Shown: positions 9,537-59,078, numbered from the stretch's first letter. The stretch: 64,000 bases of DNA from Planctomycetota bacterium (GCA_028281445.1 JANQJW010000103.1:6488-70487), one strand, 5' to 3'. Made by a program: numbers and translations. Notes: generated by a model from the sequence alone, not told the origin.

Positions 9537-9692
9537 GCGCGAGACCTCTCTTGCGACAGCCGGTTCACTTGCATCGGCGGCAGGATACGCGAGGCCGGGG
9601 CCGCGAGTATTTGCGACTCGCGTGGGCACCGCCGATACTTGCGGCGAATCAGAAGCACTGCTCGATCGCCGCCAGCACTGGCGGTTTCTGCC

Positions 9693-11895: not shown

Positions 11896-14789
11896 CCGGG
11901 CAAGCCCCACAGCACCCACGCCGCCCAGTAGTACGGGTGCGCCCACTTCTTCTGCGATCTGACGTGCGCTTGGGCCTTGCGCAACGCAGCGGCCGGAGCG
12001 ATGCCCTCGCCGTCTTTCGGGTTCCAGAGCTCGTAGAACTTGATCATCAGCGCCTGGGTCGCCTCGTCATCAACCTTCCAAAGGGAACAGAGAACGCGCG
12101 GCGTGCCGGCGTACATGAAGCTACGCGCGATGCCCATGATGCCCTCGGCGCGCATGAGGCTGCCTCGGGAGGTCTCGCACGCCGACAGCACGGCCAGATC
12201 CGCCGCGAGCTCCATCGTCGCGAGATCGCGTCCGTCCAGGAAGGGATCGACATCCTCCTGCTCGGTCAACGCAAGAGACGAGAAGAGCGGCCGCTGTGCA
12301 TCGATCAATCCGTGGCAGGCAAAGTGCACGGCGCGCCAGCGCTCCCGCGTCGCCAGCTTCTCCACGAAGCCGGGTACGGTCGCCGCCGCGCCGAGGAGCA
12401 CGACGTCACCAACAGCCTTCGCCTCGGCGCGTGTGGCAGGGAGCGGAAGCAGCGTGCGGCCGCGCAGGAAGACACGCTTGGAACTCTCGTGCATCGCGGC
12501 GTAGTCGGGATCGCCGACCGCCAGCACGCCCTTCCCCTCCGTCCATGCCTCCTCGACGAGATGCACATGCGTGGATCCCGACGGTGTCAAGGCGACCGGA
12601 AGGTCGAACAGAACACCGAAGGGCACGTACGCCAGGAAGTCCTCGGGCGCGACGATCACCTGCGTCACGGCATCCCCTAGTGCGAGGGGGTTCACGAGCG
12701 CTGCCCGCAGACGCGCGAGGGCCGGCGTGGCCTGCTGCTTCGGGTCGTCCAGCCTGAGTGCCTCGTAGGCCTCGCGTACGGCCGTGTAGGCACTGCACCG
12801 CACGAGACGCGCGCTGTCCGCCGTGATCACGCATGCGATCACCGGATCGCCGGCGCCGTACACGACGAGGGCTTGTCCCGGTTCCAGCAGATCCTGGATC
12901 TCCTCGGGCGTCGCCGCTCGTGGATACACGAGCTGTGCCTTGCGCTTGCGCAGTCGTTGGATTCGACCCAGTGCGGCCTGCACGCGCTCGCGTGCCGCGT
13001 CGAGTTGTTCCCCGAGGGTCCTGACCTCTGCGAGCGGCTTGCGCGCGACGACGGCCTGCTCGTACGCCGCACGGGCCGCGCGCTCCGCTGCTTCTGCCTC
13101 GGCCTTGCTCTTCAGATGCTCCGAGGGAACGACGCCCTCGAGGCGAAGCGCATCGCTGCCCCGCAGGCGCTCCATCAACGAACCCGCGCGCCCGCTCTCC
13201 AAGAAGAGAAGCGTCTTCGCCACATCGCCAAGCTGGAAGGCCGCGGCGGTGCCCACGGCGAAGAGACTCATGTGCTCGCCACGCATTCGCGCCGAGCTGG
13301 TGTCGTCCAACCCACCAAGCTGGTGCTCGATCTGCGCCAAGCCCGCTTCCGCCGCGCGGAGGGCGTCCGCGTACCGCTTGCCCTCGAGGTAACAAACCGC
13401 CAGTTCCGTCTGGATCTCCGACGCCGCCCGTGCAAGCCGCATGCGCTGCGCCTCACGGAGCGCTTGCTCGAGGTACTCGATGCCCTTCGCCGTCCGCCCC
13501 GTGCGCTTGTGAGCGAGCCCGAGGGCCTCGAGGATCCGGACGACCTCGGCACGATCCATCACCTCCTTCGAGACGCCCAGAGCGCGCTCGTAGTGTTCGA
13601 TGGCCTCCTCGAAGTTCTTCTTCTGCTGCTCGACGTGTCCGAGCATCGTCAGCGCGTTCCCAACGCCGCGCCGATCGTGGATCTTCTCGCGCAGAGCCAG
13701 CGTCTCTTCGAGCAGTGTCGAGGCGCGGTCCAGATCCGCGCTCTGTCCTCGCAAGATCTCTGCGCTCGCCATGTTCCCTAGTCCGACCGAGAGAGACTGG
13801 AGGTTGTTGGTCTTGCGCGCCAACTCCACGGCCTTCTCCAGATACCGGAGTGCGGTCTCCTGATCGCCCACGGCGCTCCACGCGTTGGACAGGCTGAGGA
13901 GTGCTCCGGGATAGTTGCGGGGTACGTCGGTCTTGACCACTTCGGCCGCCTCTTCGAGCACGTGCAGCGCGTCGGCATAGCGCCCGAGCTCAAGGAAGAC
14001 GGCTCCGAGATTCAGCTGCGTCCGGGCAGCGCCACCGCGGTCTCCCTGGCCGCGCTTGAGTTGCACGGACTTGCGCCAGTACGTCACGGCGCGGTCGTAC
14101 ATGGCGCGTTGGAAGTAGACGTAGCCGAGGTTCGTCAGGTACCGCGCCTGTGCGGCGGGCTCCTGGATCCTCTCGGCGATCTTGAGTGCGTTTCGCAGCA
14201 GCTTCGTCGCGCCGCGCAAGTCGCCCCCCATGATCGCGCTGCGCGCTTCGTCGGACTGCGCCCGCGCAGCGCCGCCGATCCACCCCAGTGCCTCGGCGGC
14301 CTTCGCTGCGCGTGCCTGGATCTTGGCACTCGCGGCGGGTCCGTCGACGTAGAGGTGCGCGTGTCCGCGGTGGAGCTCGACCAGGATCCGGGACACGGTG
14401 TCCAGCTCATCGCCCAGCGCGTCGGCGATGGGCAGCACGGCCTGGGGTTCACGCCGGCGAATCGCTGCCGTTGCATCGGCCAGCGCCTTGGCGAGCTTGG
14501 GATCGGGCCCTACCTCTTGGCGTGCGGTCAGATAGGCCACGAGACCCTCTGCACCTGGCCGCTTCACCGCCTCCGCGTAGGCGAGGGCCGCCTCCGTCTT
14601 CCCTTTCTGGAAGATCGTGTCGGCGAGAATCCACGCGTCATGCGGCTCGGCCGCGATGCGAGCCATCCGCTCCGCGTCTTTCGCCTCGAAGGCCTCGAGG
14701 ATGCGCTGGATGGGCGTAGGAGGCTCTTCGGCGAACGCCAGCGCGGGCACGAGCACCAGAGCCAGGCAGGCAAGGCGGGTCGCGGACAT
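11892..14789 (-). CDS. secreted TPR-repeat protein with a C-terminal CHAT (caspase-like) protease domain
   Basis: Signal peptide MSATRLACLALVLVPALAFA. About 600 aa of TPR-like repeats follow. The C-terminal CHAT has the His motif RAVHFACHGLID and the Cys motif LAVLSACETSRGS, then VLCSLWKVDDEAT...HPYYWAAWVLWGLPG. Confidence 0.85.
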   Translation of the reverse strand: MSATRLACLALVLVPALAFAEEPPTPIQRILEAFEAKDAERMARIAAEPHDAWILADTIFQKGKTEAALAYAEAVKRPGAEGLVAYLTARQEVGPDPKLAKALADATAAIRRREPQAVLPIADALGDELDTVSRILVELHRGHAHLYVDGPAASAKIQARAAKAAEALGWIGGAARAQSDEARSAIMGGDLRGATKLLRNALKIAERIQEPAAQARYLTNLGYVYFQRAMYDRAVTYWRKSVQLKRGQGDRGGAARTQLNLGAVFLELGRYADALHVLEEAAEVVKTDVPRNYPGALLSLSNAWSAVGDQETALRYLEKAVELARKTNNLQSLSVGLGNMASAEILRGQSADLDRASTLLEETLALREKIHDRRGVGNALTMLGHVEQQKKNFEEAIEHYERALGVSKEVMDRAEVVRILEALGLAHKRTGRTAKGIEYLEQALREAQRMRLARAASEIQTELAVCYLEGKRYADALRAAEAGLAQIEHQLGGLDDTSSARMRGEHMSLFAVGTAAAFQLGDVAKTLLFLESGRAGSLMERLRGSDALRLEGVVPSEHLKSKAEAEAAERAARAAYEQAVVARKPLAEVRTLGEQLDAARERVQAALGRIQRLRKRKAQLVYPRAATPEEIQDLLEPGQALVVYGAGDPVIACVITADSARLVRCSAYTAVREAYEALRLDDPKQQATPALARLRAALVNPLALGDAVTQVIVAPEDFLAYVPFGVLFDLPVALTPSGSTHVHLVEEAWTEGKGVLAVGDPDYAAMHESSKRVFLRGRTLLPLPATRAEAKAVGDVVLLGAAATVPGFVEKLATRERWRAVHFACHGLIDAQRPLFSSLALTEQEDVDPFLDGRDLATMELAADLAVLSACETSRGSLMRAEGIMGIARSFMYAGTPRVLCSLWKVDDEATQALMIKFYELWNPKDGEGIAPAAALRKAQAHVRSQKKWAHPYYWAAWVLWGLPG

Positions 14790-16030: not shown

Positions 16031-17167
16031 CTAGCGCGGCGCCCGCACAGGCTTCCAGCGTCGGTCGTCGAGGAGCTCCAATTCTTCCTCGATGAGTTCC
16101 TCACCGGCCATGGCCACGCCGTTCGAGAACCCGAAGAGGCCACGGCGCCTACCGACCGGGACAGGCTCGAAAGCGGGCACTTGATCCGTGGGCAACACGT
16201 CACGCAACGAGGAAATGTCCATGGGGCCGCGACGCAGAGCGACCGCGTGATGCGTACCTCGCGCCGCCTCGCCGATCCAACGCTGCATGGGAACGTCGCG
16301 CAGCTTGTACGAGATCCCGTCGAACATGTATGCATACACATTGGCGCCGAGCGCCTCGTCCATCGTCGCGACGATAGCCGACCAGTGTGTGCCGGGCGTC
16401 GCTCGCATGACCATGAAGAGCGCGTCGGCTGCCTCGGCCCTGCGCTCTGCCAGCGCCCGGGCGAGGGCACCAGGGGGATCGGGGGTAGAGGCAGGCTCGA
16501 CGCGCACGTCGAGGTCGATGCCGGCCACGAGACGCCCCCCACACACGCCCCGGTCACTCGGCAGGAAGACCGCGATCGTCCCGCGTTGCCCGTCCTGCCC
16601 CTGCACGGCGACGAACAACCTGACCAGACGCACCTTCATGTCCACGAAAGCTCGCAGCACGCGGTCCACCAACGCATACGGCACGCGCCGGTCGATCTGC
16701 AACAGCACGTCATCGCGCCGTACGAAAGGACGAAACGCCTTGTCCTCGGCCGCGGGAACGGGATCGCGAGGCGGCAGGTCCGCGAGTGTTCGCTTCGGGT
16801 CCGAGGAGGCGGCGGTCTTTTTCTCGGTGACTCCCTCGTCGGTGCCTTCCTCCTGGATGACCTCCTCCTCAGTGACACCGCTGGTCGAATCGCTCCAACC
16901 TGGCATCGGCCCCAGTCGCTCCCGTAGGGCAGACGCGAGGTTCTCGAGCGGGCAGGTCCCGTCCTCCAGGTGGATACGGCCCAGCGAGTCGACGGCAAGG
17001 GTCAGGCGGCCTGCCCGCGGAGGTGTGGCGCCAAAGCGAGCCGCCACGGGAAGTTCGATCGACGGATCGATGAGGGCATTTGCCTCCGTGTCGCCGTCCC
17101 CACAGCCAAGGGGAAGGCACGCGAGCAAGGCGCAGACCAGCGCCGCGACGCGATGACGAACGTGCAT
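16031..17167 (-). CDS. lipoprotein, hypothetical
   Basis: MHVRHRVAALVCALLACLPLGCGDG lipobox. An acidic low-complexity linker (EEEVIQEEGTDEGVTEKK) is present. High GC3. Confidence 0.65.
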   Translation of the reverse strand: MHVRHRVAALVCALLACLPLGCGDGDTEANALIDPSIELPVAARFGATPPRAGRLTLAVDSLGRIHLEDGTCPLENLASALRERLGPMPGWSDSTSGVTEEEVIQEEGTDEGVTEKKTAASSDPKRTLADLPPRDPVPAAEDKAFRPFVRRDDVLLQIDRRVPYALVDRVLRAFVDMKVRLVRLFVAVQGQDGQRGTIAVFLPSDRGVCGGRLVAGIDLDVRVEPASTPDPPGALARALAERRAEAADALFMVMRATPGTHWSAIVATMDEALGANVYAYMFDGISYKLRDVPMQRWIGEAARGTHHAVALRRGPMDISSLRDVLPTDQVPAFEPVPVGRRRGLFGFSNGVAMAGEELIEEELELLDDRRWKPVRAPR

Positions 17168-17219
17168 GAGGAACCCCTCGGCGGGGAACGGGTCGGCTCC
17201 GAGTCTACCGCACGCGGAG

Positions 17220-18266
17220 CTACCTGGCCCGCGGGAGCTTCAGCGTCGAGCCGGACGCAAACACCTGTGCCTCTGCCGCGAACTGCCCCATACCGACGAC
17301 TTCCAGGTCGTACGCCGTCGCGGCCGCGACGAAGGGGAGCGACACCCAGCCTTCACGATCCGTCTTCACCGTCGGAGATCGCCAGATGCGCGTGTAGTAG
17401 TTGGGTTCCGGATGACGCCAGTCCAGCGTGACGCGGCACTCGGCCAGCGGCTTGCCGCCGGGCGAGAGGAGTCGCACCCGCATCGTCGACGGTTCAGGGA
17501 CCGTGATCCGGCCGAGCTCGCCGACCGGCTTGTCCTTGCCCATCTTCGAAGAAGGAACATCCAGTCGCACCGGTGGACGATCGGGCGCCGAAGCTACAAC
17601 CAGGTAGCTCGCCGCCTTCACGGTCGTAACCTCGAACCGGCCCTGGTCGTCCGCATCGTGTCCACTGCGGATCGCCGTGAAGGCGTCCTCCTGGTACCGA
17701 TCCTGCCGACCCCAACGTCCCAGCTCCGGCCAACGAGCGGGCACGTCGCCGTACCCGTGCGACGAGCCGCCCGGCGTGAAGGCAAAGACGTCGACGCGCG
17801 CCCCGGGCACCCCCTTGCCTTGCGCGTCGACAACATGCCCGCGGACCACACCGGTGAATGACAGCACGACGTCCTTCATCACATGCTGCGTGTTGCCTTC
17901 GCTCCCTTCCTTCCGATCCAGGACGACGGCACGAGTGGGATAGCCGGGCGCCGAAGCCGCGACACCGCGGAGCCGCAGGGTACGTCCTCGCGCTGCGCCG
18001 AGCCGATAGCGACCGTCGGCGTCCGTCGTTGCGAAGAGCATCGGCTGCCGCCCGCGCACCTTCGCGGCGACGGTGGCGCCGGCGATCGGCTTGCCCTTCT
18101 CGTCAACGACGCGACCTCGAATCCCCGGGGATTCGGAAGCCTCCTCGGCGCATGACGGCGGGGCGCACAGCAGCAGGATCAGGATGCATAGGACGGACAG
18201 GTTTCGATGTGCGGTTGTGTGGCTCCTGTTGGCCGGAGTCCAGGCCGTGCTGCGCCGGCTGCTCAT
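17220..18266 (-). CDS. secreted protein with carboxypeptidase regulatory-like (CarbopepD_reg) beta-sandwich repeats
   Basis: A signal peptide is followed by repeated IRGRVVDEKGKPIAGATVAA...TDADGRYRL and VRGHVVDAQGKGVPGARVDV...DDQGRFEV units typical of CarbopepD_reg domains. Confidence 0.65.
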   Translation of the reverse strand: MSSRRSTAWTPANRSHTTAHRNLSVLCILILLLCAPPSCAEEASESPGIRGRVVDEKGKPIAGATVAAKVRGRQPMLFATTDADGRYRLGAARGRTLRLRGVAASAPGYPTRAVVLDRKEGSEGNTQHVMKDVVLSFTGVVRGHVVDAQGKGVPGARVDVFAFTPGGSSHGYGDVPARWPELGRWGRQDRYQEDAFTAIRSGHDADDQGRFEVTTVKAASYLVVASAPDRPPVRLDVPSSKMGKDKPVGELGRITVPEPSTMRVRLLSPGGKPLAECRVTLDWRHPEPNYYTRIWRSPTVKTDREGWVSLPFVAAATAYDLEVVGMGQFAAEAQVFASGSTLKLPRAR

Positions 18267-18399
18267 GGTGCTTACTCCCTGCCACCGAGGGCGTTGTGCA
18301 TCCTAGTGTGACTCCATGCGGTCAGAGAGCCCCGCCCACCGGGCTCCCCATTCGCAGAACACCTGAACCGGAACCCGGGTTTGCTCCGTTACCCCTGTC

Positions 18400-21300
18400 G
18401 TGACCCAACCCGAGTCCGTCCCGCTGGAGTCGTTGCTCGCCCACACGGGCTGGGTGCGCGGGCTCGCACTCCGCGTGGCCCGCAACCGGGCCGACGCAGA
18501 CGATCTCGAGCAGGAGACCTGGCTACGGATCCTCAGGGCACCGCCCAGGCGCAGCGCAGGACTCCGCGCCTGGATCAAGGTGGTCCTCTCGAACGCATTC
18601 CGCGACACGCGCCGGTCTGAGAGCCGACGCACGTACCGCGAGGAGGCCGTTGCGAGACCCAACAGCGCTCGCTCCACCGAGGTCCTGGTTGCGGAAGCGG
18701 AACTGCACCACCGGGTCGCGAGCGAGGTGCTGCGCCTCCCGGAGCCCTACCGCTCCGTTCTCCTCCGTCGCTACTACCAGGGCCTGCCGCCTCGTTCGAT
18801 TGCCGAACGGACCGGCCTGCCGGTAGAGACGGTCCACACCCAGCTCAAGCGCGCGCGGAAGCGACTGCGCAGCGCGCTGCAGGAGCGGTCCGGTCGGGAG
18901 CAGCTCGGGACACTGGGGCTCGCGCCGGCGGCGAACGGCTGGATCTCGAAGGGAGCGATACTCGTGAGCGCGAGCACCAAGAAGTGGGCCGCCCTGTCCG
19001 GCGCAGTCCTGCTCCTGATCGGCGGCGTCGTTGCCGTGAACTCCCTGTCGTCCTCCGATGCGCCGCGCCCGCAGGAGACGCCCGGCGCGCTGCAGACATC
19101 GGCTCCCACCCTCGAGTCGAAGCCTGTTCGAAAGCGGGCTCCGGGCCCGTCGACAGAACGCGTGCCGGAGGCGCGCGTGGGGCGTCTTCACGTCCGGGTC
19201 ACCAAGGGTGAGGGCCAACCCGTAGCGGGCGCGGCCGTCAACGTGTATCCGGGCGGCTTGCGGCAGCGCATCCGTTGGCTCGATCTCGACCGCACGTACG
19301 ACGACCCGATGCCCGCGCACTCGGCCACCACCGATGTCCGCGGGGAAGCACGCTTCGACGCGCTGCGCGTCGGCGGGTGGGTCGTCGTGGCGACGAGTCC
19401 GGGCTTCGCGCCCAGCGGGGTGAGCCTGCCTCGATTCTCGGCGGACGGCGAGCTAACGATCGACCTTCGACTCGAACCGGGCGGACGCGTCGCAGGGCGC
19501 GTCTTCGATGCGGAGGGCCGCACGGTAGCCGACGCGCTCGTCATCGCCTCGCGCACTAGCCTCGGACGGTTCGGGGCGGTCGAAGTGCGCGCACGGTCGA
19601 CCAGGGAAGGCGAGTACGCCTTCGAAGACCTACCGCCCGGTGTGCTCTCGCTCGAGGTGCGCGCCCCACGTCACGCGGTCCACCGCGTAGGCTCCATCGT
19701 GGCTCCGATGGCGCGAGGCTTCGACATCCACCTTCCGCGCACGGGGCGCGTCGTAGGCCGTCTCCTCGGACCGAGCGGAGCGCCTGTGCCCGACGCGCAG
19801 GTCGAGCTCCACATGTGGGCGCGCGGCTTCGCCGAGACGAGCACGGATCACGAGGGACGCTTCGAGCTCTTCACCGAGAAGCCGATCCGCTCGGCGTTCC
19901 TGACGGCCCGCGTCCGAGGCTTCCTGCTCGATCCAGGGCAGCCCTACTACCACCTCGCTTCGGCCTACATCGGAAGCTGTCTCGACATTCCCCCACCCGC
20001 AGTCGGCGAGACGCGGCACGTGGAAATGCGATTGATCAAGGGCGCGAGGCTGCAGGGACGCGTGCTCGGACCGAACGGCCCGCTTGCCGGGGCCCGCGTA
20101 CGCGTCGTGACCATCGGAACCGAGGCGGCTGTGGGCGCCTTCGGGACCGAGACGAACGCCGAGGGGCACTACGTGCTCGAAGGTCTTCCCGCAGGCTTGC
20201 TTCTCGTGCGCGCCGAGCATGAGTCCTACACCATTCCCGGCCTTCCGCGCGACGGCGTACGCCTGCACGCGGTTCGATCCGGCGCGACGGATCCGCTCTC
20301 AGTGACACTGGGGGCGGGGGCGACGGGTCGCCTCGACATCACACTGGAGAAGGGCGCCGTCATCACGGGTCGGGTGGTGACAAGCGACGGCAAGCCGGTG
20401 GCCGGCGCATCCGTCTGGGCCGGTCAGCCAGTGGAGACTCGGGAAGTGGCCAACGCCCGTTCCGCGGCCGACGGTACGTTCACCCTGGACCCCGTCGACC
20501 TTACGCGAAAGGGCTGGGTAAGCGTCAGGCATCCCCACTTCCTTCCGCATTGCGTCGCAGTGAAAGCCTCCGACGAGAACCGCGCAGAGGTGACGCTCGA
20601 GCTGCATGCGTTCCGAGTCGCAAGAGGTCGTGTCACCTCCGAGAGCGGCGACGTGCCGGAGGGGACCGTCGTGCGGCTTGTCAGCTACGGAGCTTCGAAT
20701 CGCCAGGAGCTCTTTGGGAAGTTCGTCCACGCGCCCAAGCACGACGTGGGAGGCGACGGCTCGTTCGAGTTGCGCGTGCCCGTGCTCGAGGGTGCACTTG
20801 GCGGCCTCTGGATCCGCGCGGGCGCGCCCGGATACGCCGACGCGACTCTCGGTCCGCTCAAGGTGAAGCCCAACGAACCCATCTCTGACATCCGGATCGC
20901 CCTGGCGAGGGGTCATGACGTCGAGCTCGTCGTGACGGAACAGGGTGGCGCGCCCATTCCGGGCGCTTCCGTCGTGCTAGTGAGCTATGACGACGAGAAC
21001 AACCTCTACGAGCCGCGCGCGTATCGAGATCCCACGGACGCACACGGCTCGACCACATTGCGTGTGCTGCCGGACGGGCGGTTCTTCGCCGACGTGAGCG
21101 CCCGTGGTTTCGCACCGGCCCAGGTCGAGTGGGTCCTCCCGGGGCCCACGCGAATCGCGGTGCCCCTCGTTCGCGCCGCTCGCATCGAGGGCCGCGTTCG
21201 CGCGGAGACGGGCGCCTCACCAGCGGGTGCGCGCCTGGAGCTCTCGCCGCTTGAGGTCACACCGCGGCGCGGCCCCGGCATCCGGCCGTCGCCGACACCG

Positions 21301-21978
21301 GGGGAGGCCTTCGTCCAAGCCGACGGGCGCTTCGTCGTCGACGGGCTCGCGGCCGGCCGTTACCGAGTCGTGGTCTCACCGCCCGCGGGCTCAACCGGAC
21401 TGGGTGTCGTCACCCTCGAGTCGGTCGAAACCGGGACCCATGACCTGTCCATCACGCTCCCGGCGGCCGGGATCATCGTCGGCCGCGTGCGGGACCCGGC
21501 GGGCTATCCCGCCAAGGACGTCGTGGTCCGCGCGCTCGCCGAAGAAACGAAGTCGGGCTCCTGGAAGACGACGACGAAGCCCGACGGGACCTTCGAGATC
21601 GGCGGCCTGCGTAGCGAGCGGTTCGTCGTGCGCGTCGAGACGCCCCGCTGGGGCAAGCTGGGCGCGTTCGCGTGGATGCAACAGTCCGGCGTCGAGCCGG
21701 GTGGGTCCGAGTTGAACTTCATCCTCGTACGCGGCGCAACCATCGAAGGTCGCGTGGTTGACGGGACCGGGAAGGGGGTCCCCGGCCTTCCCATCGGAAG
21801 CCACGCGAAGTGGGTCATCACGGGGGAGAGCGGCGCCTTCGTGCTCCGCGGACTGCGGAAAGGCAAGCATCGCATTCGCGTGCAGTCCTGGGCGAACAGC
21901 ACCGGATTCCAGCGCCTGCTGGGCGCTGACGCGATCGAGGCCGGCGCACGAGGCGTCGAGCTGCGCGCAGCGCGCTAG
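18400..21978 (+). CDS. ECF sigma factor fused through a single TM helix to a ~950 aa extracytoplasmic array of about ten CarbopepD_reg-like repeats
   Basis: GTG start at 18400. Sigma regions 2 and 4 are DLEQETWLRILRA and LRLPEPYRSVLLRRYYQGLPPRSIAERTGLPVETVHTQLKRARKRL. The TM helix is WAALSGAVLLLIGGVVAVNSL. It is one uninterrupted 1192-codon frame. The stop TAG at 21976-21978 lies inside the IS target duplication and is therefore native. Confidence 0.8.
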   Translation: MTQPESVPLESLLAHTGWVRGLALRVARNRADADDLEQETWLRILRAPPRRSAGLRAWIKVVLSNAFRDTRRSESRRTYREEAVARPNSARSTEVLVAEAELHHRVASEVLRLPEPYRSVLLRRYYQGLPPRSIAERTGLPVETVHTQLKRARKRLRSALQERSGREQLGTLGLAPAANGWISKGAILVSASTKKWAALSGAVLLLIGGVVAVNSLSSSDAPRPQETPGALQTSAPTLESKPVRKRAPGPSTERVPEARVGRLHVRVTKGEGQPVAGAAVNVYPGGLRQRIRWLDLDRTYDDPMPAHSATTDVRGEARFDALRVGGWVVVATSPGFAPSGVSLPRFSADGELTIDLRLEPGGRVAGRVFDAEGRTVADALVIASRTSLGRFGAVEVRARSTREGEYAFEDLPPGVLSLEVRAPRHAVHRVGSIVAPMARGFDIHLPRTGRVVGRLLGPSGAPVPDAQVELHMWARGFAETSTDHEGRFELFTEKPIRSAFLTARVRGFLLDPGQPYYHLASAYIGSCLDIPPPAVGETRHVEMRLIKGARLQGRVLGPNGPLAGARVRVVTIGTEAAVGAFGTETNAEGHYVLEGLPAGLLLVRAEHESYTIPGLPRDGVRLHAVRSGATDPLSVTLGAGATGRLDITLEKGAVITGRVVTSDGKPVAGASVWAGQPVETREVANARSAADGTFTLDPVDLTRKGWVSVRHPHFLPHCVAVKASDENRAEVTLELHAFRVARGRVTSESGDVPEGTVVRLVSYGASNRQELFGKFVHAPKHDVGGDGSFELRVPVLEGALGGLWIRAGAPGYADATLGPLKVKPNEPISDIRIALARGHDVELVVTEQGGAPIPGASVVLVSYDDENNLYEPRAYRDPTDAHGSTTLRVLPDGRFFADVSARGFAPAQVEWVLPGPTRIAVPLVRAARIEGRVRAETGASPAGARLELSPLEVTPRRGPGIRPSPTPGEAFVQADGRFVVDGLAAGRYRVVVSPPAGSTGLGVVTLESVETGTHDLSITLPAAGIIVGRVRDPAGYPAKDVVVRALAEETKSGSWKTTTKPDGTFEIGGLRSERFVVRVETPRWGKLGAFAWMQQSGVEPGGSELNFILVRGATIEGRVVDGTGKGVPGLPIGSHAKWVITGESGAFVLRGLRKGKHRIRVQSWANSTGFQRLLGADAIEAGARGVELRAAR

Positions 21979-21979
21979 C
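21974..21979. repeat. left target-site duplication GCTAGC of the IS481-family element
   Basis: It is identical to the hexamer at 23016-23021, sits immediately outside the inverted repeats and contains CTAG. Confidence 0.6.
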
Positions 21980-23015
21980 TCTCAGTACCGAGCACGTTGT
22001 CGACACCCGGCCGGTAGGCGTTCAAACGGGGGCTTCCCGCCGATGCCTGCGTGGGGTCGTTCGCGATTGTAGTGCTCGAGCCAAGGCCCGAGGGCCTTGG
22101 CTCGGGCTCGGTCGCTGCGGTACGGCCGTGCGTAGGCCCACTCGCGCATCAGGCTCTGGATGAAGCGCTCGGCCTTGCCGTTCGTCTGCGGCCGGCACGG
22201 CCGTGTCTTGAGATGGCGAGCTCCGAGCGCCGCACAGGCGTCCCGGAAGGCGTAGCTGCAGTACGCCGAGCCGTTGTCGGTCATCACACGCTCGACGTCC
22301 ACGCCGTGTCTCTTCAGCCAGGCCGTCGCCCGTTCCAAGAAGGCCGTCGCCGACTCCTTGCGCTCGTCGGACAGGATCTCTACGTAGGCCGCCCGGCTGT
22401 GATCGTCCACGCAAACGTGCAGGAAGTCCCAGCCCGCTCCCTGGCTGCGGCGCCGGAGCTTGCCGGTGACTCGCTTGCCCGGGCAGCGGAACCGGCCCAA
22501 CTTCTTCACGTCCAGGTGGATCAGCTCACCCGGTCGATCGCGCTCGTAGCGCACGATCGGCTCCACGGGATCCAGGTACTTGAGCTTGCCCAGGCCCAGC
22601 CGGCGCAGAACGCCGCCAACCGTGGAGATCGCCATGCCGAGTCGCTTCGCGATTGCCCACGCGGTGAGGCGCTTTCGGCGCAGTTGCTCGATGCGTCGCT
22701 GAAGCCACCGCTTCGTTCGGTTCCAGACACGACCTGGGGCCGAGCTGCGATCCTCAAGGCCGGCATGGCCCTCTTCCTCGTAGCGCCAGAGCCATTTGTA
22801 GGCCGTAGCACGGCTGATGCCCATCGCGCAGGCCGCGTCCGAGACGCGCCAGTCCTCCTTCAAAACCCTCTGCACAAGTAGCTGGCGGGTCTTCGGTGTC
22901 GTTCGAGCGTTAGCATGCAGCTTCATCCTGGGATCCTCCCGGTGACGTGGGTTTGGTTTCGCAACCTCCACGTTCCGGGATTCCCGGGATGTCTACAACC
23001 TGCTCAGCAATGACA
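21980..23015. mobile_element. IS481-family insertion sequence (IS3 superfamily), about 1036 bp, with a single transposase, imperfect ~30 bp terminal inverted repeats and a 6 bp GCTAGC target duplication
   Basis: The left end TCTCAGTACCGAGCACGTTGTCGACACCCGG (21980-22010) matches the reverse complement of the right end CCGGGATGTCTACAACCTGCTCAGCAATGACA (22984-23015) at about 23 of 31 positions. It is flanked by GCTAGC at 21974-21979 and 23016-23021, consistent with the NCTAGN target preference of IS481. Confidence 0.8.
21982..22926 (-). CDS. IS481-family DDE transposase (rve integrase core)
   Basis: The ORF is trimmed to MKLHANARTTPKTRQLLVQRV (HTH). The DDE region is HLDVKKL...MTDNGSAY...TNGKAERF. 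This is the classic IS481 transposase architecture. Confidence 0.9.
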   Translation of the reverse strand: MKLHANARTTPKTRQLLVQRVLKEDWRVSDAACAMGISRATAYKWLWRYEEEGHAGLEDRSSAPGRVWNRTKRWLQRRIEQLRRKRLTAWAIAKRLGMAISTVGGVLRRLGLGKLKYLDPVEPIVRYERDRPGELIHLDVKKLGRFRCPGKRVTGKLRRRSQGAGWDFLHVCVDDHSRAAYVEILSDERKESATAFLERATAWLKRHGVDVERVMTDNGSAYCSYAFRDACAALGARHLKTRPCRPQTNGKAERFIQSLMREWAYARPYRSDRARAKALGPWLEHYNRERPHAGIGGKPPFERLPAGCRQRARY

Positions 23016-23021
23016 GCTAGC
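23016..23021. repeat. right target-site duplication GCTAGC of the IS481-family element
   Basis: See the left copy. It overlaps the TAG stop (plus-strand cta at 23021-23023) of the convergent methyltransferase gene. Confidence 0.6.
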
Positions 23022-23683
23022 TACCGGCCTCGCCGTGCCAGCACGTACACCCGCTCGGTCGGGTACTCCGTCTCGTACGCCGGCCGTGAGGTCGCCTCGA
23101 GAATGTCGAACCCTGCCCCCTCCACGAGCGACCGCATCTCATCGAGCTCGTAGAGCGTCACCGCCATGGGCACGGGCTCGTCGAACAGCGCGTCCTGCTG
23201 GAACGTCCCGGCACCACGATGGACGGACACGAGGAGCGGTGAACCAGGCGCCAGCGCACGAGCGAACTCCGCGAGGGCGTGCGGGGCGTCTTCTCGAACG
23301 ACGTTGATGAGCGAGTAGAGCGCGACGCAGCCCCCCCACGATCCTGTGGGCACCTCGAGCTCGAGCATGTCGCCGACCTGGAACGTGGCTTCCGGAACGA
23401 GAGAGCGCCCGAGCGCCACCATCTCGTCGCAGAGATCGACGCCGCACACCTCGAGCCCCATGCCGCAGAGGTGCCTGGCCACGTGACCGGGGCCACAGCC
23501 CACGTCCGCGACGAGAGCCCCCGGCGCAACCAGCCCGGCGAAGCGCTCGAGTAACGCGCGGTCGAAGGGCTTGTCGTCCAGCTCATGGAAGAGTCGCTCG
23601 ACGTACTGGTCCGCAACGCGCCCCCACCCGCGCGCTAGCGACCGCATCGCCTCTCGATTGAGCTCCGGTTCCGGCTGGGACAT
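23021..23683 (-). CDS. class I SAM-dependent methyltransferase
   Basis: The track ORF 23021..24199 is trimmed to MSQPEPELNREAMR (CAT at 23681-23683). The SAM motif I is LVADVGCGPGHVARHL, followed by motif II/III context GVDLCDEMV. Confidence 0.8.
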   Translation of the reverse strand: MSQPEPELNREAMRSLARGWGRVADQYVERLFHELDDKPFDRALLERFAGLVAPGALVADVGCGPGHVARHLCGMGLEVCGVDLCDEMVALGRSLVPEATFQVGDMLELEVPTGSWGGCVALYSLINVVREDAPHALAEFARALAPGSPLLVSVHRGAGTFQQDALFDEPVPMAVTLYELDEMRSLVEGAGFDILEATSRPAYETEYPTERVYVLARRGR

Positions 23684-23773
23684 GGCGTCAGGGTACTGGG
23701 GCGTTCGTTCGAGATGCCTACTCTGAAACCCAGGCAGGACGGCGGCCATCATCCCGGTGTCTGGAGGAGAACC

Positions 23774-24541
23774 ATGCCCATTCGATTCCATGCCATTGCA
23801 GCCGCGTTGGTCCTCTTGCTCGCCGCATGCGGCGGGGAGAAGGCACCCGACACCAAGAACCCGGACGGGCCCACCACGCCCAGCGAGCCGGGTCCCCTCG
23901 CCAAGGCGTTGGACGCCAAGAAGGCCGCAGGCATGAAGATGATGCCTGACGAGGTGAAGGCCGTGATCGAGAAGAGCGGTAAGGAGATCGCCGCGCTCGA
24001 CCTGGAGTCCCAGGCGTTGAACGTCGGCGCGCGAGCACCGGACTTCACGCTCTCCGACGGCAACGGCGAGTCCTACGAGCTCAAGAGCCTGCTCGAAGAG
24101 GGCCCGGTTGTCCTGACCTTCTACCGCGGCAAGTGGTGACCCTACTGCGACATCGCCCTCAAGGCGTACCGGCAGGTCCTGCCGGATATCAAGAAGCACG
24201 GCGCGACGCTCGTCGCCATCTCCCCCATGACGGCCGACAGCACGCGTGAGATGCAGACCGTGCTGGAGAACGCCTATCCGATCCTGAGCGATCCCGCGAA
24301 CAAGGTGGCGCGCACCTACAAGCTCGTGTTCGCGCTGCCCGCAGACCTGCGTCCGGTCTACGCGAAGTTCGGCATCGATCTCCCCGCGGACAACGGCGAC
24401 GACACCTTCGAGCTGCCCGTGCCCGCCACGTACGTCATCAGCCAGGACGGAACGATCCGGTGGGCCGACATCGACATCGACTACACGTCTCGCGCGGAGC
24501 CGCGCGACATCCTCGCAGCACTCGCCGCGCTATCGCCGTAG
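23774..24541 (+). CDS. candidate selenoprotein: a thioredoxin-fold redoxin/Prx-like lipoprotein with TGA at 24137-24139 read as selenocysteine in a W-U-P-Y-C motif
   Basis: Track ORFs 23714..24139 and 24227..24541 are in the same frame and separated only by the TGA. Translation continues through it as ...GPVVLTFYRGKW[TGA]PYCDIALKAYRQVLPDIKKHGATLVAISPMTAD.... The likely start is ATG 23774 (MPIRFHAIAAALVLLLAACGG, lipobox) with a GGAGGAGA Shine-Dalgarno. The joined 255 aa protein matches the AhpC/TSA-redoxin fold (ARAPDFTL.D..G....L, FYRGKWCxxC, ILSD). Confidence 0.55.
24169..24185 (+). promoter_or_regulatory. candidate SECIS-like stem-loop downstream of the in-frame TGA
   Basis: CCGGCAG-GTC-CTGCCGG forms a perfect 7 bp stem with a 3 nt G/U-containing loop. 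It starts 30 nt after the TGA and the apical loop lies about 40 nt after it, slightly beyond the canonical bSECIS window. Confidence 0.3.
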
Positions 24542-25655: not shown

Positions 25656-28019
25656 CTACACCGGCGTCAGCGGCCAGAAGATCGGCAGCACGAGCATCAC
25701 GACCGCGAACACCACGAGAAACAGACCGAAGCCCACACGCGTGTAGTCCGTGAAGCGATAGCCCCCCATGCCCATGACAAGCAGGTTCACGGGATGACCG
25801 ACCGGGCTCATGAAAGCGCACGAGCTCGCGAGGGCCACGCACATCGCCGCGCTCTGGGGATGCACGCCCAGCGCCGCCACGTCGCTCAACACGATCCGCG
25901 ACATCAACACCGCCACGGCCGCCGTCGGCATCACCTGGGCCGCAAGCGCGCTCACGAGGAAGATGCCCGCCAGCACGGCGCGCGGCCCGAGCGGCGCGAT
26001 CAGCTGCAGCACGTTGTCTGCGATCATCGCGGCCGCGCCCGACTTCTCCATTGCGAGGCCGAGCGTCAACATGCCCGCCACCAGCACGATGGCCTTCCAC
26101 TCGATGTGTTCGTAGACCTCCTGCGGCTTCAGACAACGGAGGACGACCATCGCCGCCGCGCCGCAGAGAGCCGCGAGGAAGATCGGTACGAGCCCGAACG
26201 CCACGGCCGCAAGTACCGACGCCATGATGAGTCCTGCGATCGGTCCCTTCTCCACGCGATACGGCTCCGCGGCGGCTCCCGTGACGACGATGAAGTCCTC
26301 TTCCTGCGCCAACAGCCTGAACTTCTCGCGTGGTCCGTAGACGAGGATCGCGTCGCCGAGAGCCAGCTCGAAGTCGCGCAGGTTCGAACGGTAGGCCCGG
26401 CCCCCGCGCCAGACGGCGATCACCGTCACGCCGTAGCTCTGGCGAAAGTGCACTTCGCGTACCGTGCGGCCGGCCAGCTCGCTGCGCGGCGCGAGGATGA
26501 TCTCGCCGATGCCGACGTCCGTCGTCTCGAGCGCGTCTACGCCGGGCGCGGGCTCCGTATCGATCTCCAGCGCCTGGAGTGCGTGCAGGTACTGCAGCTC
26601 CTCGTCGCGGCCTTCGATCTCGAGCACGTCTCCCTCTTGAAGGACGGTGGAGGGCTCGGGCAGCACGATGTGCTGCTCGCCTCGTTCCAACCCGACGACC
26701 GTGAGCGCGCACGCGTCGCGCAGGTTCGACGCCGCCAGCGAGTTGCCGGCAAGGCCTGAGCCCGCGGGCACTCGTACGCGCATCAACCGGCGCGTAAGTT
26801 CGTATGTGGAGGCGGCCGTCCTGGCGTCGAGCAGGTTGACGCCGGTCAGGCCGTCGAACGCCCTCAGCACGCCGAAGTTCTCGCGTGGGCCCATCGCGAG
26901 CAGCCGGTCGCCCGACGCCAAGCGCAACGTATCGAGCCGCGTGAGGCGCGCATCGCGCCGGCGCCCGTGCGCGATGGCCAGCACGCGCAGTCCCGTCACG
27001 TCGCGGAACCCGTAATCGAAAAGTGTCGTCCCCTCGAACTCGCCCTCTCCGAGGACGATCTCGACGAACCCGATCTCGTCTGACTCGAGTCGGCCCAACG
27101 ACGGGACGCCAGGGAGAACCTCGAGCGTGCCCCACCCGCGCACCTCGTCGAAACGCTCCCTGCGGCCTTCGACCACCAGACGGTCGCCCCCGCGCAGCAC
27201 CGAGTCGGGTCCCGGCGCGAGATGGGGATCGTCGCCTCGCTTGATCGCCAGCACGCTGAAACCGAGCGCGGGATGGAGCCGGCTCTCCGCCAGCGTGGCG
27301 TTGGCGAGCGCCGAGTCTTCCGGGATGTGCACGGTGAACAGGCGCTGCCCCAGATCGTAGGGTTCGTGGATGCTGTCGTCCGCGGCTGCGTCCTCGCGCC
27401 CGACGTCTCGGTCCGGCAACAAGCGGCGTCCGATGAAGACCATGTACACCGTGCCCGCGGCCAAGGCACAGAGGCCGATCGGCGTGAAGTCGAACATGGT
27501 GAACGGCTCGTTGCCCGTGTCTCGCAGCGCGCCCGACACGAGGATGTTGGGCGCCGTTCCGATCAACGTCGTCATGCCGCCGAGCAGCGAGCCGAAGGCG
27601 AGCGGCATCAGAAGCTTCGACGGCGACAGCTTGAGGCGCCTGGCCATGGCGACCACGACAGGCAGCATCAGCGCCGTCACCGCGATGTCGTTCATGATGC
27701 CGGAGAGCAGGCCGACCGTGAGCATGAGCACCGCGGTCAGGCGCGCCTCGCCGCGTCCCGCGACCTGGAGCACCCGGCGGCCGAGCGTGTTGGCGACACC
27801 GGTGCGCTGCAGCCCGCCGCTGAGTACGAGCACGGCGGCCATCGTGACCACGGCCTCGTTCGAGAAGCCGCTGAGCGCCTCGTCGTGGGAGACGATGCCC
27901 GTCAGCGCCAGCGTGATCAGGACCAGAAGCGCTACGACGTCCACGCGCAGCCACTCGGTCACGAACAGAAGAACAGCCCCGCCGAGCGTGCCGAAGACGA
28001 CCCAAACCTCCCAGGACAT
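25656..28019 (-). CDS. SLC13/DASS-family anion permease with four central TrkA-C regulatory domains
   Basis: Multiple TM helices lie at both ends. The central ~400 aa contain repeated RLESDEIGFVEIVL...GTTLFD / GDRLLAMG units typical of TrkA-C. The terminal transporter halves resemble CitT/SLC13 permeases. Confidence 0.85.
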   Translation of the reverse strand: MSWEVWVVFGTLGGAVLLFVTEWLRVDVVALLVLITLALTGIVSHDEALSGFSNEAVVTMAAVLVLSGGLQRTGVANTLGRRVLQVAGRGEARLTAVLMLTVGLLSGIMNDIAVTALMLPVVVAMARRLKLSPSKLLMPLAFGSLLGGMTTLIGTAPNILVSGALRDTGNEPFTMFDFTPIGLCALAAGTVYMVFIGRRLLPDRDVGREDAAADDSIHEPYDLGQRLFTVHIPEDSALANATLAESRLHPALGFSVLAIKRGDDPHLAPGPDSVLRGGDRLVVEGRRERFDEVRGWGTLEVLPGVPSLGRLESDEIGFVEIVLGEGEFEGTTLFDYGFRDVTGLRVLAIAHGRRRDARLTRLDTLRLASGDRLLAMGPRENFGVLRAFDGLTGVNLLDARTAASTYELTRRLMRVRVPAGSGLAGNSLAASNLRDACALTVVGLERGEQHIVLPEPSTVLQEGDVLEIEGRDEELQYLHALQALEIDTEPAPGVDALETTDVGIGEIILAPRSELAGRTVREVHFRQSYGVTVIAVWRGGRAYRSNLRDFELALGDAILVYGPREKFRLLAQEEDFIVVTGAAAEPYRVEKGPIAGLIMASVLAAVAFGLVPIFLAALCGAAAMVVLRCLKPQEVYEHIEWKAIVLVAGMLTLGLAMEKSGAAAMIADNVLQLIAPLGPRAVLAGIFLVSALAAQVMPTAAVAVLMSRIVLSDVAALGVHPQSAAMCVALASSCAFMSPVGHPVNLLVMGMGGYRFTDYTRVGFGLFLVVFAVVMLVLPIFWPLTPV

Positions 28020-36150: not shown

Positions 36151-36293
36151 CACCACCTCGCATGTGACACCCACGAGCATGCTAGCACAGTGCACTGGGT
36201 GCTCCGGACGCCGCGAGATCCGGCGTGCATCCGATCTTGTCGGCGCGGCATCTCGTAGGGTAGGAGCGCAGGTTCGCGCTCCACGGAGCCTGG

Positions 36294-57211: not shown

Positions 57212-57337
57212 GGCCCGGCATCTATACACGTCCGGCCGCGGCGTTACCACCGAGCCACGCGAATCGGAGTCTCGAAACGCACTACACGAGCCGGCGAGGG
57301 TTCCGCGGTGCGGAACAGGCGTTGCGCATCGTCCGGC

Positions 57338-59065: not shown

Positions 59066-59078
59066 GTATGCTCGCGCC

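What the first reader, a model, noticed from the sequence alone, without database searches (positions are those of the whole stretch)
18400..21978. ECF sigma factor fused via one TM helix to a ~950 aa array of carboxypeptidase-regulatory-like repeats
This is a single uninterrupted 1192-codon frame with complete sigma regions 2 and 4, one TM helix, and about ten CarbopepD_reg-like beta-sandwich repeats outside the membrane. The anti-sigma/sensor role appears to be built into the sigma factor itself. ECF sigma factors with C-terminal regulatory extensions are known. An extension this large and made of these repeats is unusual and suggests release by regulated proteolysis.
Basis: partly seen in the sequence, partly recalled or inferred. 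Interest (0 to 1): 0.55.

Follow-up and report, generated by a model that had tools for sequence, protein, structure and literature searches.

The report
Membrane-anchored sigma factor with β-sandwich array

Summary
Window 18400-21978 (+) is one unbroken 1192-codon ORF. It has ECF σ2/σ4 domains (aa 9-169), a flexible 30-aa tether, one TM helix (aa 198-216, N-in), a Pro/Ser-rich linker and ten diverged CarboxypepD_reg β-sandwich units (aa 261-1192).

It is not a frameshift, an assembly join or an IS truncation. Codon-position GC stays in frame across the junction. A 61%-identical, 1197-aa orthologue is collinear. The downstream IS481 sits in a duplicated GCTAGC that contains the native TAG stop.

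The architecture is common. The best 150 cluster representatives (clusters at 50% identity) matching a σ-tether-TM profile all score E≤2e-73, and 48 of 50 sampled carry CarboxypepD_reg arrays. Named relatives are almost all Planctomycetota MAGs.

No anti-σ domain lies between σ4 and the membrane, and no anti-σ or protease gene recurs nearby. An ECF-type promoter (TGAACC-N17-CGTTA, 8 nt before the GTG) is conserved in the orthologue, and GAACC is enriched upstream of relatives.

Best reading: a self-contained transmembrane σ factor, autoregulated and probably released by regulated proteolysis. The release step is inferred, not shown. It is a new variant of a known kind; interest is moderate.

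The parts
18364..18391 (+). Putative ECF-type, autoregulated promoter: -35 TGAACC (18364-18369), 17-nt spacer, -10 CGTTA (18387-18391). It ends 8 nt before the GTG start, so the mRNA would be leaderless or have a very short leader.
   Evidence: The sequence and geometry recur in the 61%-identical orthologue L001, while the intergenic DNA upstream of the motif has diverged. GAACC lies within 150 nt upstream in 20 of 26 family loci against about 20% expected. It is the only TGAACC-N15-19-CGTT in the window (35 of 100 shuffles give at least one match, so the single match alone is weak evidence).
18400..21978 (+). Complete gene for a 1192-aa single-pass transmembrane ECF sigma factor.
18424..18654 (+). 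Sigma region 2 (aa 9-85), cytoplasmic.
   Evidence: Pfam Sigma70_r2 5e-11; AF2 pLDDT >90; PDB and Foldseek matches to ECF sigma factors.
18676..18906 (+). Sigma region 4 (aa 93-169), cytoplasmic.
   Evidence: Pfam Sigma70_r4_2 6e-13; AF2 pLDDT >90.
18907..18990 (+). Cytoplasmic tether (aa 170-197). It has no anti-sigma domain and holds a degenerate copy of the family's post-sigma4 motif.
   Evidence: No Pfam hit; pLDDT <50 for aa 175-193. The family motif RLD.EHGGDR.AW..ALLPLA is seen; this protein lacks the invariant Trp.
18991..19047 (+). Single transmembrane helix (aa 198-216, ALSGAVLLLIGGVVAVNSL), oriented N-in/C-out.
   Evidence: Kyte-Doolittle peak 2.07, with KK on the N-terminal side. 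A TM at the same place in about 72 of 84 sigma-bearing relatives. Family net charge is +0.9 before and -0.3 after the TM.
19048..19179 (+). Pro/Ser/Thr/Ala-rich extracytoplasmic juxtamembrane linker (aa 217-260).
   Evidence: Read from the sequence; low pLDDT. Not conserved in the family alignments.
19180..21975 (+). Ten diverged CarboxypepD_reg (transthyretin-like beta-sandwich) units, aa 261-1192, extracytoplasmic.
   Evidence: Pfam PF13620 2e-79 with 9 stretches. Ten units by self-built HMM. Alignment of the ten units shows the GRV..-G-P..GA.V...-DG.F signature at 16-33% identity. No DNA tandem repeat.
21980..23015 (-). IS481-family insertion sequence (transposase ORF 21982-22971) flanked by a GCTAGC duplication (21974-21979 and 23016-23021). 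Not part of the sigma gene, but it abuts the stop codon.
   Evidence: Pfam rve, rve_3 and LZ_Tnp_IS481. 35-nt inverted repeats, 80% complementary, each ending in GCTAGC. Sequence read.
17220..18266 (-). Divergently oriented gene for a 348-aa protein with an N-terminal hydrophobic segment (candidate signal peptide) and a CarboxypepD_reg domain. Possible functional partner or target; the link is unproven.
   Evidence: Pfam PF13620 1e-23; N-terminal hydrophobic segment read. No ECF-type promoter found on its strand.

Best explanation
Shown: the gene encodes one polypeptide in which a complete ECF sigma factor (sigma2-sigma4) sits in the cytoplasm. A flexible tether of about 30 residues links it to a single membrane helix. 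A proline-rich linker then leads to a rod of ten transthyretin-like (CarboxypepD_reg) beta-sandwich domains on the periplasmic side. It is an intact member of a large Planctomycetota family with this exact layout. It has no anti-sigma domain, and no conserved partner gene was found. An ECF-type promoter (TGAACC-N17-CGTTA) is conserved directly upstream.

Inferred: the protein is a self-contained transmembrane signalling device. While anchored, the sigma domain is kept from productive use by RNA polymerase. A signal acting on the beta-sandwich array or on the exposed juxtamembrane linker (binding, unfolding or proteolytic trimming) triggers cleavage outside the membrane, followed by intramembrane cleavage in the Gly/Ser/Asn-containing helix. 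That frees a sigma fragment of about 20 kDa, which transcribes its regulon and its own gene (positive feedback).
For: Architecture and integrity.

Family: 84 of 120 full-length hits carry the sigma domain, and about 72 of those have one TM 19-55 aa after sigma4. The best 150 representatives at 50% identity match a sigma-tether-TM profile at E<=2e-73, and 48 of 50 sampled carry CarboxypepD_reg. Of 20 genome loci, 18 are titled as Planctomycetota or a lineage within it.

No partner: neighbourhoods differ between loci. Among 72 neighbours from 15 loci there is no anti-sigma family and no recurrent protease.

Functional sigma: the promoter is conserved with the orthologue, and GAACC is enriched upstream across the family. 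This matches the AAC/CGT hallmark of ECF promoters (PMC8103513).

Release by proteolysis: by analogy with IutY, a sigma/anti-sigma fusion freed by Prc and RseP, and with the model proposed for ECF48/52/53 (PMC8999054). The TM helix holds GG, S and N, and 50 of 77 family TM helices have at least 2 Gly. The juxtamembrane linker is disordered and Pro-rich. A Peptidase_M50 gene and an Rce1-like gene lie near two relatives, which is anecdotal.
Against: Nothing here shows cleavage. No site-1 or site-2 protease gene is among the window ORFs I scanned, and none recurs near relatives. Gly-rich TM helices are not specific to S2P substrates.

Unlike IutY and ECF52, there is no anti-sigma domain, so it is unclear why the tethered form would be inactive at all.

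The promoter's 17-nt spacer (18 nt between AAC and CGT) is at the long end for ECF promoters. The single window match is not significant by itself. The motif was chosen after seeing the data, and some loci are near-duplicates.

No second copy of the promoter was found in the window, so no regulon member is identified.
Confidence: 0.5

Rival explanations
1. The sigma factor works while still anchored in the membrane, like ToxR or CadC. The beta-sandwich array changes conformation or oligomeric state, and the tethered sigma recruits RNA polymerase to membrane-proximal DNA. No proteolysis is needed.
For: No anti-sigma domain and no recurrent protease gene. The tether between sigma4 and the TM is flexible. 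In Tuwongella immobilis, several ECF sigma factors were recovered from detergent-soluble fractions and not the soluble fraction (PMC8567305). The model of relative P0009 superimposes best on holoenzyme-bound M. tuberculosis SigE (rmsd 5.8 A) and poorly on anti-sigma-bound ECFs (rmsd 16-21 A). That comparison is weak, because pTM is only 0.53.
Against: A tether of about 30 residues would have to let sigma dock onto RNA polymerase at the membrane. No membrane-active sigma factor has been demonstrated in the papers I could read. The fractionation data concern other proteins.
Confidence: 0.22
2. The conserved helix after sigma4 (RLD.EHGGDR.AW..ALLPLA) is a minimal anti-sigma element acting in cis. 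The family is switched by displacing this helix. The window protein has lost the invariant Trp, so it is a deregulated or decaying copy.
For: The motif is nearly invariant in the family (W172, D162, G167, P178). In canonical member P0009 it is modelled as a confident helix (aa 169-180, pLDDT 90-94). In the window protein it is degenerate and has low confidence. Paralogue 36294-37433 keeps the motif with a different outer domain.
Against: I could not see coordinates or PAE, so where the helix docks is unknown. It may simply extend sigma4. The orthologue P0002 is also divergent here yet conserved in length and overall sequence. That argues for a functional subfamily, not decay.
Confidence: 0.15
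3. The long ORF is an artefact: a frameshift, an assembly join, a lost stop between a sigma gene and a downstream gene, or truncation or extension by the adjacent IS481.
For: A GTG lies at aa 189 just before the TM helix and could once have started a separate gene. An IS element abuts the stop codon.
Against: The frame-specific GC3 signal is continuous. The 61%-identical orthologue is collinear and 1197 aa long. Dozens of independent clusters share the layout. The TAG stop lies in the duplicated GCTAGC target, so it predates the insertion.
Confidence: 0.02

Closest known systems
Planctomycetal ECF sigma factors with large C-terminal extensions: group ECF57 in the 2021 classification (PMC7826278, PMC8999054), and, from my memory of Jogler et al. 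2012, 'ECF01-Gob' of Gemmata with WD40 extensions
   Same: Same phylum. Sigma2-sigma4 is followed by a hydrophobic helix and then a long repeat-domain extension. Genomes carry several paralogues (ECF57 averages 5.3 copies per planctomycetal genome). There is no cognate anti-sigma gene. Gemmata and related sigma-WD40 proteins are weak sigma-domain hits of the query (P0098, P0118-P0120).
   Different: The extension is a CarboxypepD_reg beta-sandwich array, not a WD40 propeller. The two conserved cysteines reported for ECF57 are absent: 0 Cys in this sigma domain, and 41 of 50 family representatives also have none. The sigma-WD40 proteins have an extra N-terminal segment of about 40 aa and several Cys. 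The sigma clade here is tightly coupled to its extension type (48/50). Pinto et al. describe variable, 'fortuitous' extensions for other planctomycetal clusters (PMC7671368).
IutY of Pseudomonas putida (ECF243), a sigma/anti-sigma fusion released by Prc and RseP
   Same: One polypeptide with an N-terminal ECF sigma, a single TM helix and an extracytoplasmic C-terminal part. It gives a tested precedent for freeing a fused sigma by regulated intramembrane proteolysis (PMC8999054).
   Different: IutY carries a FecR-type anti-sigma domain and works with an outer-membrane receptor. This protein has no anti-sigma domain, no conserved receptor gene and an unrelated outer domain.
Actinobacterial ECF48/ECF52/ECF53 (for example SCO4117)
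   Same: ECF sigma factors with a fused C-terminal extension containing one or two TM helices and an extracytoplasmic domain. A proteolytic activation model has been proposed for them (PMC8999054; PMC5826349).
   Different: Those have a zinc-finger (ZAS-like) anti-sigma segment and extensions of up to about 400 residues. SCO4117 carries a carbohydrate-binding domain. Here there is no zinc finger, and about 975 residues lie outside the membrane.
Canonical ECF sigma with a single-pass anti-sigma factor (RpoE-RseA, SigW-RsiW)
   Same: Same sigma fold. Same logic of a single-pass membrane protein coupling an outside signal to sigma availability. An autoregulated AAC...CGT promoter.
   Different: Those are two proteins; this is one. 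In them sequestration is by an anti-sigma domain wrapped between sigma2 and sigma4, and that domain is missing here.

Membership tests
ECF (group 4) sigma-70 factors | Sigma2 and sigma4 domains only, with no region 1 or region 3 | tested here: met
   Pfam Sigma70_r2 and Sigma70_r4_2, with no r3 or r1 hit. TIGR02937 2e-20. PDB profile hits to SigE/SigL/SigW covering positions 6-163. Foldseek probability 1.0 to ECF sigma structures.
ECF (group 4) sigma-70 factors | Autoregulated promoter with an AAC -35 and a CGT -10 | tested here: inconclusive
   TGAACC-N17-CGTTA lies 8 nt before the start and is conserved in orthologue L001. GAACC is enriched upstream in 20 of 26 loci. There are no transcript data, and the motif was chosen post hoc.
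ECF57 (planctomycetal, WD40-type extension) | WD40-like repeats in the C-terminal extension | tested here: not met
   No WD40 hit; the extension is CarboxypepD_reg.
ECF57 (planctomycetal, WD40-type extension) | Two conserved cysteines linking sigma2 and sigma4 (PMC8999054) | tested here: not met
   No Cys in aa 1-170. 41 of 50 family representatives have none in the first 165 aa, whereas the sigma-WD40 proteins have 3-5 Cys in their first 230 aa.
ECF57 (planctomycetal, WD40-type extension) | Assignment by the ECF classification HMMs (ECF Hub) | not testable with these tools
   The group HMM library is not available, and the supplementary tables are not held.
Sigma/anti-sigma fusion proteins (IutY type; ECF48/52/53 type) | A recognisable anti-sigma domain (FecR, zf-HC2/ZAS, RskA) between sigma4 and the TM helix | tested here: not met
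   Only about 30 residues, with no Pfam or NCBIfam anti-sigma hit. pLDDT <50.
Sigma/anti-sigma fusion proteins (IutY type; ECF48/52/53 type) | Single-pass topology with sigma inside and the sensor outside | tested here: met
   One TM at aa 198-216 with positive residues on the sigma side. This rests on hydropathy only; no dedicated topology predictor was available.
Sigma/anti-sigma fusion proteins (IutY type; ECF48/52/53 type) | Activation by site-1 plus site-2 proteolysis | not testable with these tools
   This needs protein-level experiments. No protease gene is among the window ORFs I scanned, and none recurs in the neighbourhoods examined.
CarboxypepD_reg (PF13620) repeat proteins | Repeated transthyretin-like beta-sandwich units matching PF13620 above the gathering score | tested here: met
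   262 bits against a cut-off of 32.3, with 9 stretches. Ten units by self-built HMM and alignment. The fold itself was not modelled.
IS481 family insertion sequence (adjacent element) | DDE transposase with an IS481 leucine zipper, terminal inverted repeats, and a duplication of a CTAG-containing target | tested here: met
   rve, rve_3 and LZ_Tnp_IS481. 35-nt inverted repeats and GCTAGC at both ends. The CTAG target preference is from my own knowledge of IS481.

The most novel reading that the evidence does not exclude
These proteins form a very large, unstudied class of one-polypeptide transmembrane sigma factors. They would signal across the membrane without any anti-sigma domain. The mechanism would be either action while tethered, or a conserved 12-residue helix after sigma4 serving as a built-in minimal inhibitor controlled by the ten-domain periplasmic rod (for example as a ruler or mechanosensor of the enlarged planctomycetal periplasm). 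That would be a sigma-factor signalling mode distinct from anti-sigma sequestration.
Probability: 0.2. Interest if true: 0.65.

Novelty: new variant of a known kind. Interest (0 to 1): 0.4.

Why it matters
[quoted passage not shown] This family is widespread in Planctomycetota. The sigma domain is joined directly to a membrane helix and to a long beta-sandwich array, with no anti-sigma domain and no conserved partner gene. It is therefore a compact, possibly portable, one-gene sensor and regulator.

The conserved promoter gives a ready reporter for testing how such a protein is switched on. For genome annotation, these proteins are currently labelled only 'sigma-70 family RNA polymerase sigma factor', which hides their membrane topology.

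This particular gene is one ordinary member of that family. The general idea of planctomycetal ECFs with large, membrane-spanning extensions is already in the literature.

Tried and rejected
- **Frameshift, assembly join or lost stop.** Rejected on the GC3 frame profile, the collinear orthologue and the family-wide architecture.
- **IS481 truncation of the 3' end.** Rejected. The TAG lies in the duplicated GCTAGC, and the orthologue has the same length.
- **Recent tandem duplication or repeat collapse.** Rejected. There is no DNA tandem repeat, and the units are only 16-33% identical.
- **Hidden anti-sigma domain in the tether.** No family hit, and the tether is modelled as disordered.
- **Conserved partner genes.** Five annotated contigs and 72 neighbours from 15 further loci gave no recurrent anti-sigma factor or protease. 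Only scattered CarboxypepD_reg proteins and sigma paralogues recurred. The single M50 and Rce1-like neighbours are treated as coincidence.
- **Regulon search in the window.** The promoter motif occurs only upstream of the gene itself, and no ECF-type promoter faces the divergent gene.
- **Searches that failed.**
  - The sigma-only homologue search returned just 3 short proteins and was uninformative.
  - The exact-sequence contig look-up for the window protein found nothing.
  - The source genome is not among the species representatives scanned, so the organism is known only as a likely Planctomycetota MAG.
  - Jogler 2012 and Wiegand 2020 and the supplements of the ECF classification papers are not held, so the ECF group number could not be assigned.
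Full report

Yes. Window 18400-21978 (+) is a single ORF of 1192 codons with a GTG start and no internal stop.

Pfam finds Sigma70_r2 (aa 14-77, 5e-11), Sigma70_r4_2 (aa 110-156, 6e-13) and CarboxypepD_reg (2e-79, nine stretches). NCBIfam's ECF superfamily model TIGR02937 scores 2e-20 over aa 15-160.

A profile of the N-terminal region matches solved ECF sigma factors: M. tuberculosis SigE at 7e-25, then SigL, SigW, SigH, AlgU and RpoE. An AlphaFold2 model of aa 1-260 has pLDDT >90 across sigma2 (aa 9-85) and sigma4 (aa 93-169). It matches ECF sigma structures with Foldseek probability 1.0.

A hydropathy scan finds one transmembrane segment, aa 198-216, preceded by Lys-Lys.

An HMM grown from the protein's own repeats finds ten units, starting near aa 261, 362, 449, 549, 653, 740, 840, 927, 1024 and 1113. 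Aligned, they show the usual GRV.D..G.P..GA.V...TD..G.F signature at 16-33% pairwise identity. There is no tandem repeat at the DNA level, so the array is old and diverged and is not an assembly product.

**2. Is the fusion genuine?**

GC at the third codon position stays at 0.77-0.90 in the ORF's frame in every 180-nt window from 18400 to 19600.

A protein 61% identical over 100% of the length (P0002, 1197 aa, from a different metagenome) aligns collinearly through sigma4, the tether, the TM helix, the outer linker and the first repeat.

The gene ends four bases from an IS481-family transposase gene on the other strand. The element (21980-23015) has 35-nt terminal inverted repeats and is flanked by GCTAGC on both sides (21974-21979 and 23016-23021). 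The sigma gene's TAG (21976-21978) lies inside the left copy. The right copy supplies the C of the CTA that is the stop of the convergent methyltransferase gene (23021-24199, minus strand).

Before the insertion the two stop codons abutted as TAGCTA. The target duplication preserved both ORFs. The stop is therefore native and the protein is not truncated, which agrees with the orthologue's length.

**3. How common is it?**

Of 120 full-length hits, 84 contain the sigma domain. About 72 of those have one hydrophobic helix 19-55 residues after sigma4, and their precomputed Pfam lists pair sigma r2/r4 with PF13620.

I then searched 1.84 billion cluster representatives (clusters at 50% identity) with a profile of sigma + tether + TM. 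That gave 12,084 hits at E<=1e-30. The best 150 all scored E<=2e-73, all matched through the TM helix, and most were 700-1500 aa long.

Of 50 representatives sampled from those 150, 49 have sigma domains and 48 have CarboxypepD_reg arrays. This sigma clade and this extension type are therefore tightly coupled.

Twenty loci were recovered from species-representative genomes. Eighteen are titled as Planctomycetota or a lineage within it, one is an unclassified 'uncultured bacterium', and one is binned as Myxococcales. Source-given names in the protein search are mostly Planctomycetota too. The window's own genome is not among the representatives. At about 68% GC, and given its relatives, it is most likely an uncultured planctomycete.

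Paralogues occur within single genomes:
- three within 12 kb in L005;
- two on one 637-kb contig (L012 and L015).

**4. Anatomy between sigma4 and the membrane**

Only about 30 residues separate sigma4 from the TM helix. They match no anti-sigma family and are modelled as disordered (pLDDT <50 for aa 175-193).

The family nevertheless has a strongly conserved segment right after sigma4, RLD.EHGGDR.AW..ALLPLA, with an invariant Trp. In a canonical member (P0009) AlphaFold2 models it as a confident extra helix (aa 169-180, pLDDT 90-94). A disordered stretch and the TM helix follow.

In the window protein, and partly in its orthologue, the motif is degenerate (LQERSGREQLGTLGLAPAA, no Trp). I could not inspect coordinates, so where this helix docks is unknown.

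Across the family, net charge is +0.9 in the 12 residues before the TM helix and -0.3 after it. That fits a sigma-inside, array-outside topology.

**5. Context**

Neighbourhoods are not conserved. Five annotated contigs and 72 called neighbours from 15 further loci show no zf-HC2, RskA or FecR anti-sigma factor and no recurrent protease. The only repeated families are other CarboxypepD_reg proteins (5 of 72) and sigma paralogues.

In the window, the divergent upstream gene (17220-18266, minus) encodes a CarboxypepD_reg protein with an N-terminal hydrophobic segment that looks like a signal peptide. It is followed on the same strand by 16031-17167, whose product starts with a lipoprotein-like sequence and has no family match. 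In the orthologue's locus, three CarboxypepD_reg proteins lie within 10 kb.

A Peptidase_M50 gene lies 1.4 kb from one relative, and an Rce1-like gene lies next to another. I treat these as anecdotes. None of the window ORFs I scanned is a site-1 or site-2 protease candidate.

**6. Promoter**

The 36 bases before the GTG read TGAACCGGAACCCGGGTTTGCTCCGTTACCCCTGTC. The orthologue has TGAACCGGAACCCGCATCAGCTCCGTTAGCCCCCGT before its GTG. The spacing is identical, while the intergenic DNA upstream of the motif has diverged.

This fits the ECF hallmark of an AAC -35 and a CGT -10 (PMC8103513). The spacer is 17 nt, and the -10 ends 8 nt before the start codon, which implies a leaderless or very short-leader mRNA.

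Across 26 family loci, GAACC occurs within 150 nt upstream of the gene in 20, against about 20% expected from the loci's own composition (binomial 9e-10). The common forms are TGAACC-N16/17-GTGTTC and TGAACC-N16/17-CGTT.

Caveats:
- the motif was chosen after inspecting the data;
- some loci are near-duplicates;
- the single match in the window is not significant by itself.

No second copy exists in the window, and none faces the divergent gene.

**7. Mechanism**

Shown:
- a complete ECF sigma factor is covalently tethered to a single-pass membrane helix with a large extracytoplasmic beta-sandwich array;
- the layout is conserved in a large family;
- there is no anti-sigma domain and no conserved partner;
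- an ECF-type promoter is conserved upstream.

Inferred: the protein is a self-contained transmembrane regulator with positive autoregulation.

I consider release by regulated proteolysis the most likely switch (about 0.5). The precedent is IutY, a fused sigma/anti-sigma protein freed by Prc and RseP, and the same model has been proposed for ECF48/52/53 (PMC8999054). The disordered Pro-rich outer linker and the Gly/Ser/Asn-containing helix are compatible with it. Nothing here demonstrates cleavage.

The main rival (about 0.2) is activity while tethered, without proteolysis. A further possibility (about 0.15) is that the conserved post-sigma4 helix is a minimal inhibitor acting in cis, lost or altered in this copy.

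**8. Comparison with what is known**

ECF sigma factors with C-terminal extensions are the second most common regulatory type, found in 19 groups (PMC7826278). Planctomycetes are known for many ECFs with large and diverse extensions (PMC7671368). ECF57, with WD40-like extensions, averages 5.3 copies per planctomycetal genome.

This protein works like that kind, but it fails two features reported for ECF57: WD40 repeats and the two conserved cysteines. It also lacks the anti-sigma segment that defines the IutY and ECF48/52/53 fusions.

I could not assign an ECF group number because the group HMMs and supplements are not available. No paper in the searchable library links an ECF sigma factor to CarboxypepD_reg repeats. 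Jogler 2012 and Wiegand 2020, the papers most likely to mention it, are not held.

**9. Verdict**

The gene is an ordinary, intact member of a large but uncharacterised Planctomycetota family.

It is a new variant of a known kind: an ECF sigma factor with a membrane-spanning C-terminal extension. Interest is moderate. What makes it worth following up is the absence of any anti-sigma domain, the conserved extra helix and the ready-made promoter reporter.

Noticed in passing
window 21974-23023: An IS481-family element (21980-23015) inserted into the palindrome GCTAGC. There the stop codons of two convergent genes abutted as TAGCTA: the sigma gene's TAG and the CTA that is the methyltransferase's stop on the other strand. 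The 6-bp target duplication left both ORFs with intact stops.
   Followed up: yes
window 36294-37433 (+), with 33916-36195 (-) and 37472-38524 (+): A 379-aa paralogue of the same sigma clade: 40% identity over 174 aa, and it keeps the post-sigma4 motif (ASWRTGLAPLAG). It has a weakly hydrophobic helix, a Pro-rich linker and a different C-terminal domain of about 90 aa with no Pfam hit (it looks STN/secretin-N-like to my eye). A DUF1570 protein gene lies divergently upstream, and a BBP7 putative porin gene follows it.
   Followed up: partly
window 18387-18402 and L001 6267-6283: The putative -10 element ends only 8 nt before the GTG start, in both the window gene and its orthologue. Several relatives also have the motif within about 10-15 nt of the start, which suggests leaderless GTG- or ATG-initiated mRNAs in these planctomycetes.
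   Followed up: partly
proteins P0009 and P0124-P0264 (alignments A2, A4); window aa 160-178 = nt 18877-18933: A nearly invariant motif after sigma4 (RLD.EHGGDR.AW..ALLPLA) forms a confidently modelled extra helix in canonical family members. It is degenerate in the window protein and in its closest orthologue.
   Followed up: partly
window 55932-56516 (-) and 56540-59095: A third ECF-type sigma gene (Sigma70_ECF, PF07638, 3e-48). Next to it two long ORFs overlap on opposite strands and both have strong domain hits: DUF6544/DUF6920 on the minus strand and CarboxypepD_reg on the plus strand. The true gene boundaries there are unresolved.
   Followed up: no
window 5802-9629 (-) and 11892-14789 (-): Two large signalling-type proteins lie upstream: a Ser/Thr kinase-AAA_16-TPR protein (1275 aa) and a TPR-CHAT protein (965 aa).
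   Followed up: no
window 16031-18266 (-): A divergent two-gene unit. The first product (348 aa) has an N-terminal hydrophobic segment (candidate signal peptide) and a CarboxypepD_reg domain. The second (378 aa) starts with a lipoprotein-like sequence (LPLGC) and has no family match. No ECF-type promoter was found on their strand.
   Followed up: partly
L005 1-11540; L002 12499-13539: One metagenomic contig carries three sigma-CarboxypepD_reg paralogues within 12 kb, with an Rce1-like intramembrane protease gene divergent from one of them. Another relative has a Peptidase_M50 gene 1.4 kb downstream. Neither association recurs in the other loci.
   Followed up: partly
proteins P0007, P0023, P0036, P0037: A few family members also carry PDZ domains (PF17820, PF00595, PF13180) in the extracytoplasmic part.
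   Followed up: no
window 39372-40361 (-), 46847-50728 (-), 25656-28019 (-): Other genes in the window include an ankyrin-repeat protein, an Lhr-type large helicase and a CitMHS/TrkA_C transporter. None has an evident link to the sigma gene.
   Followed up: no
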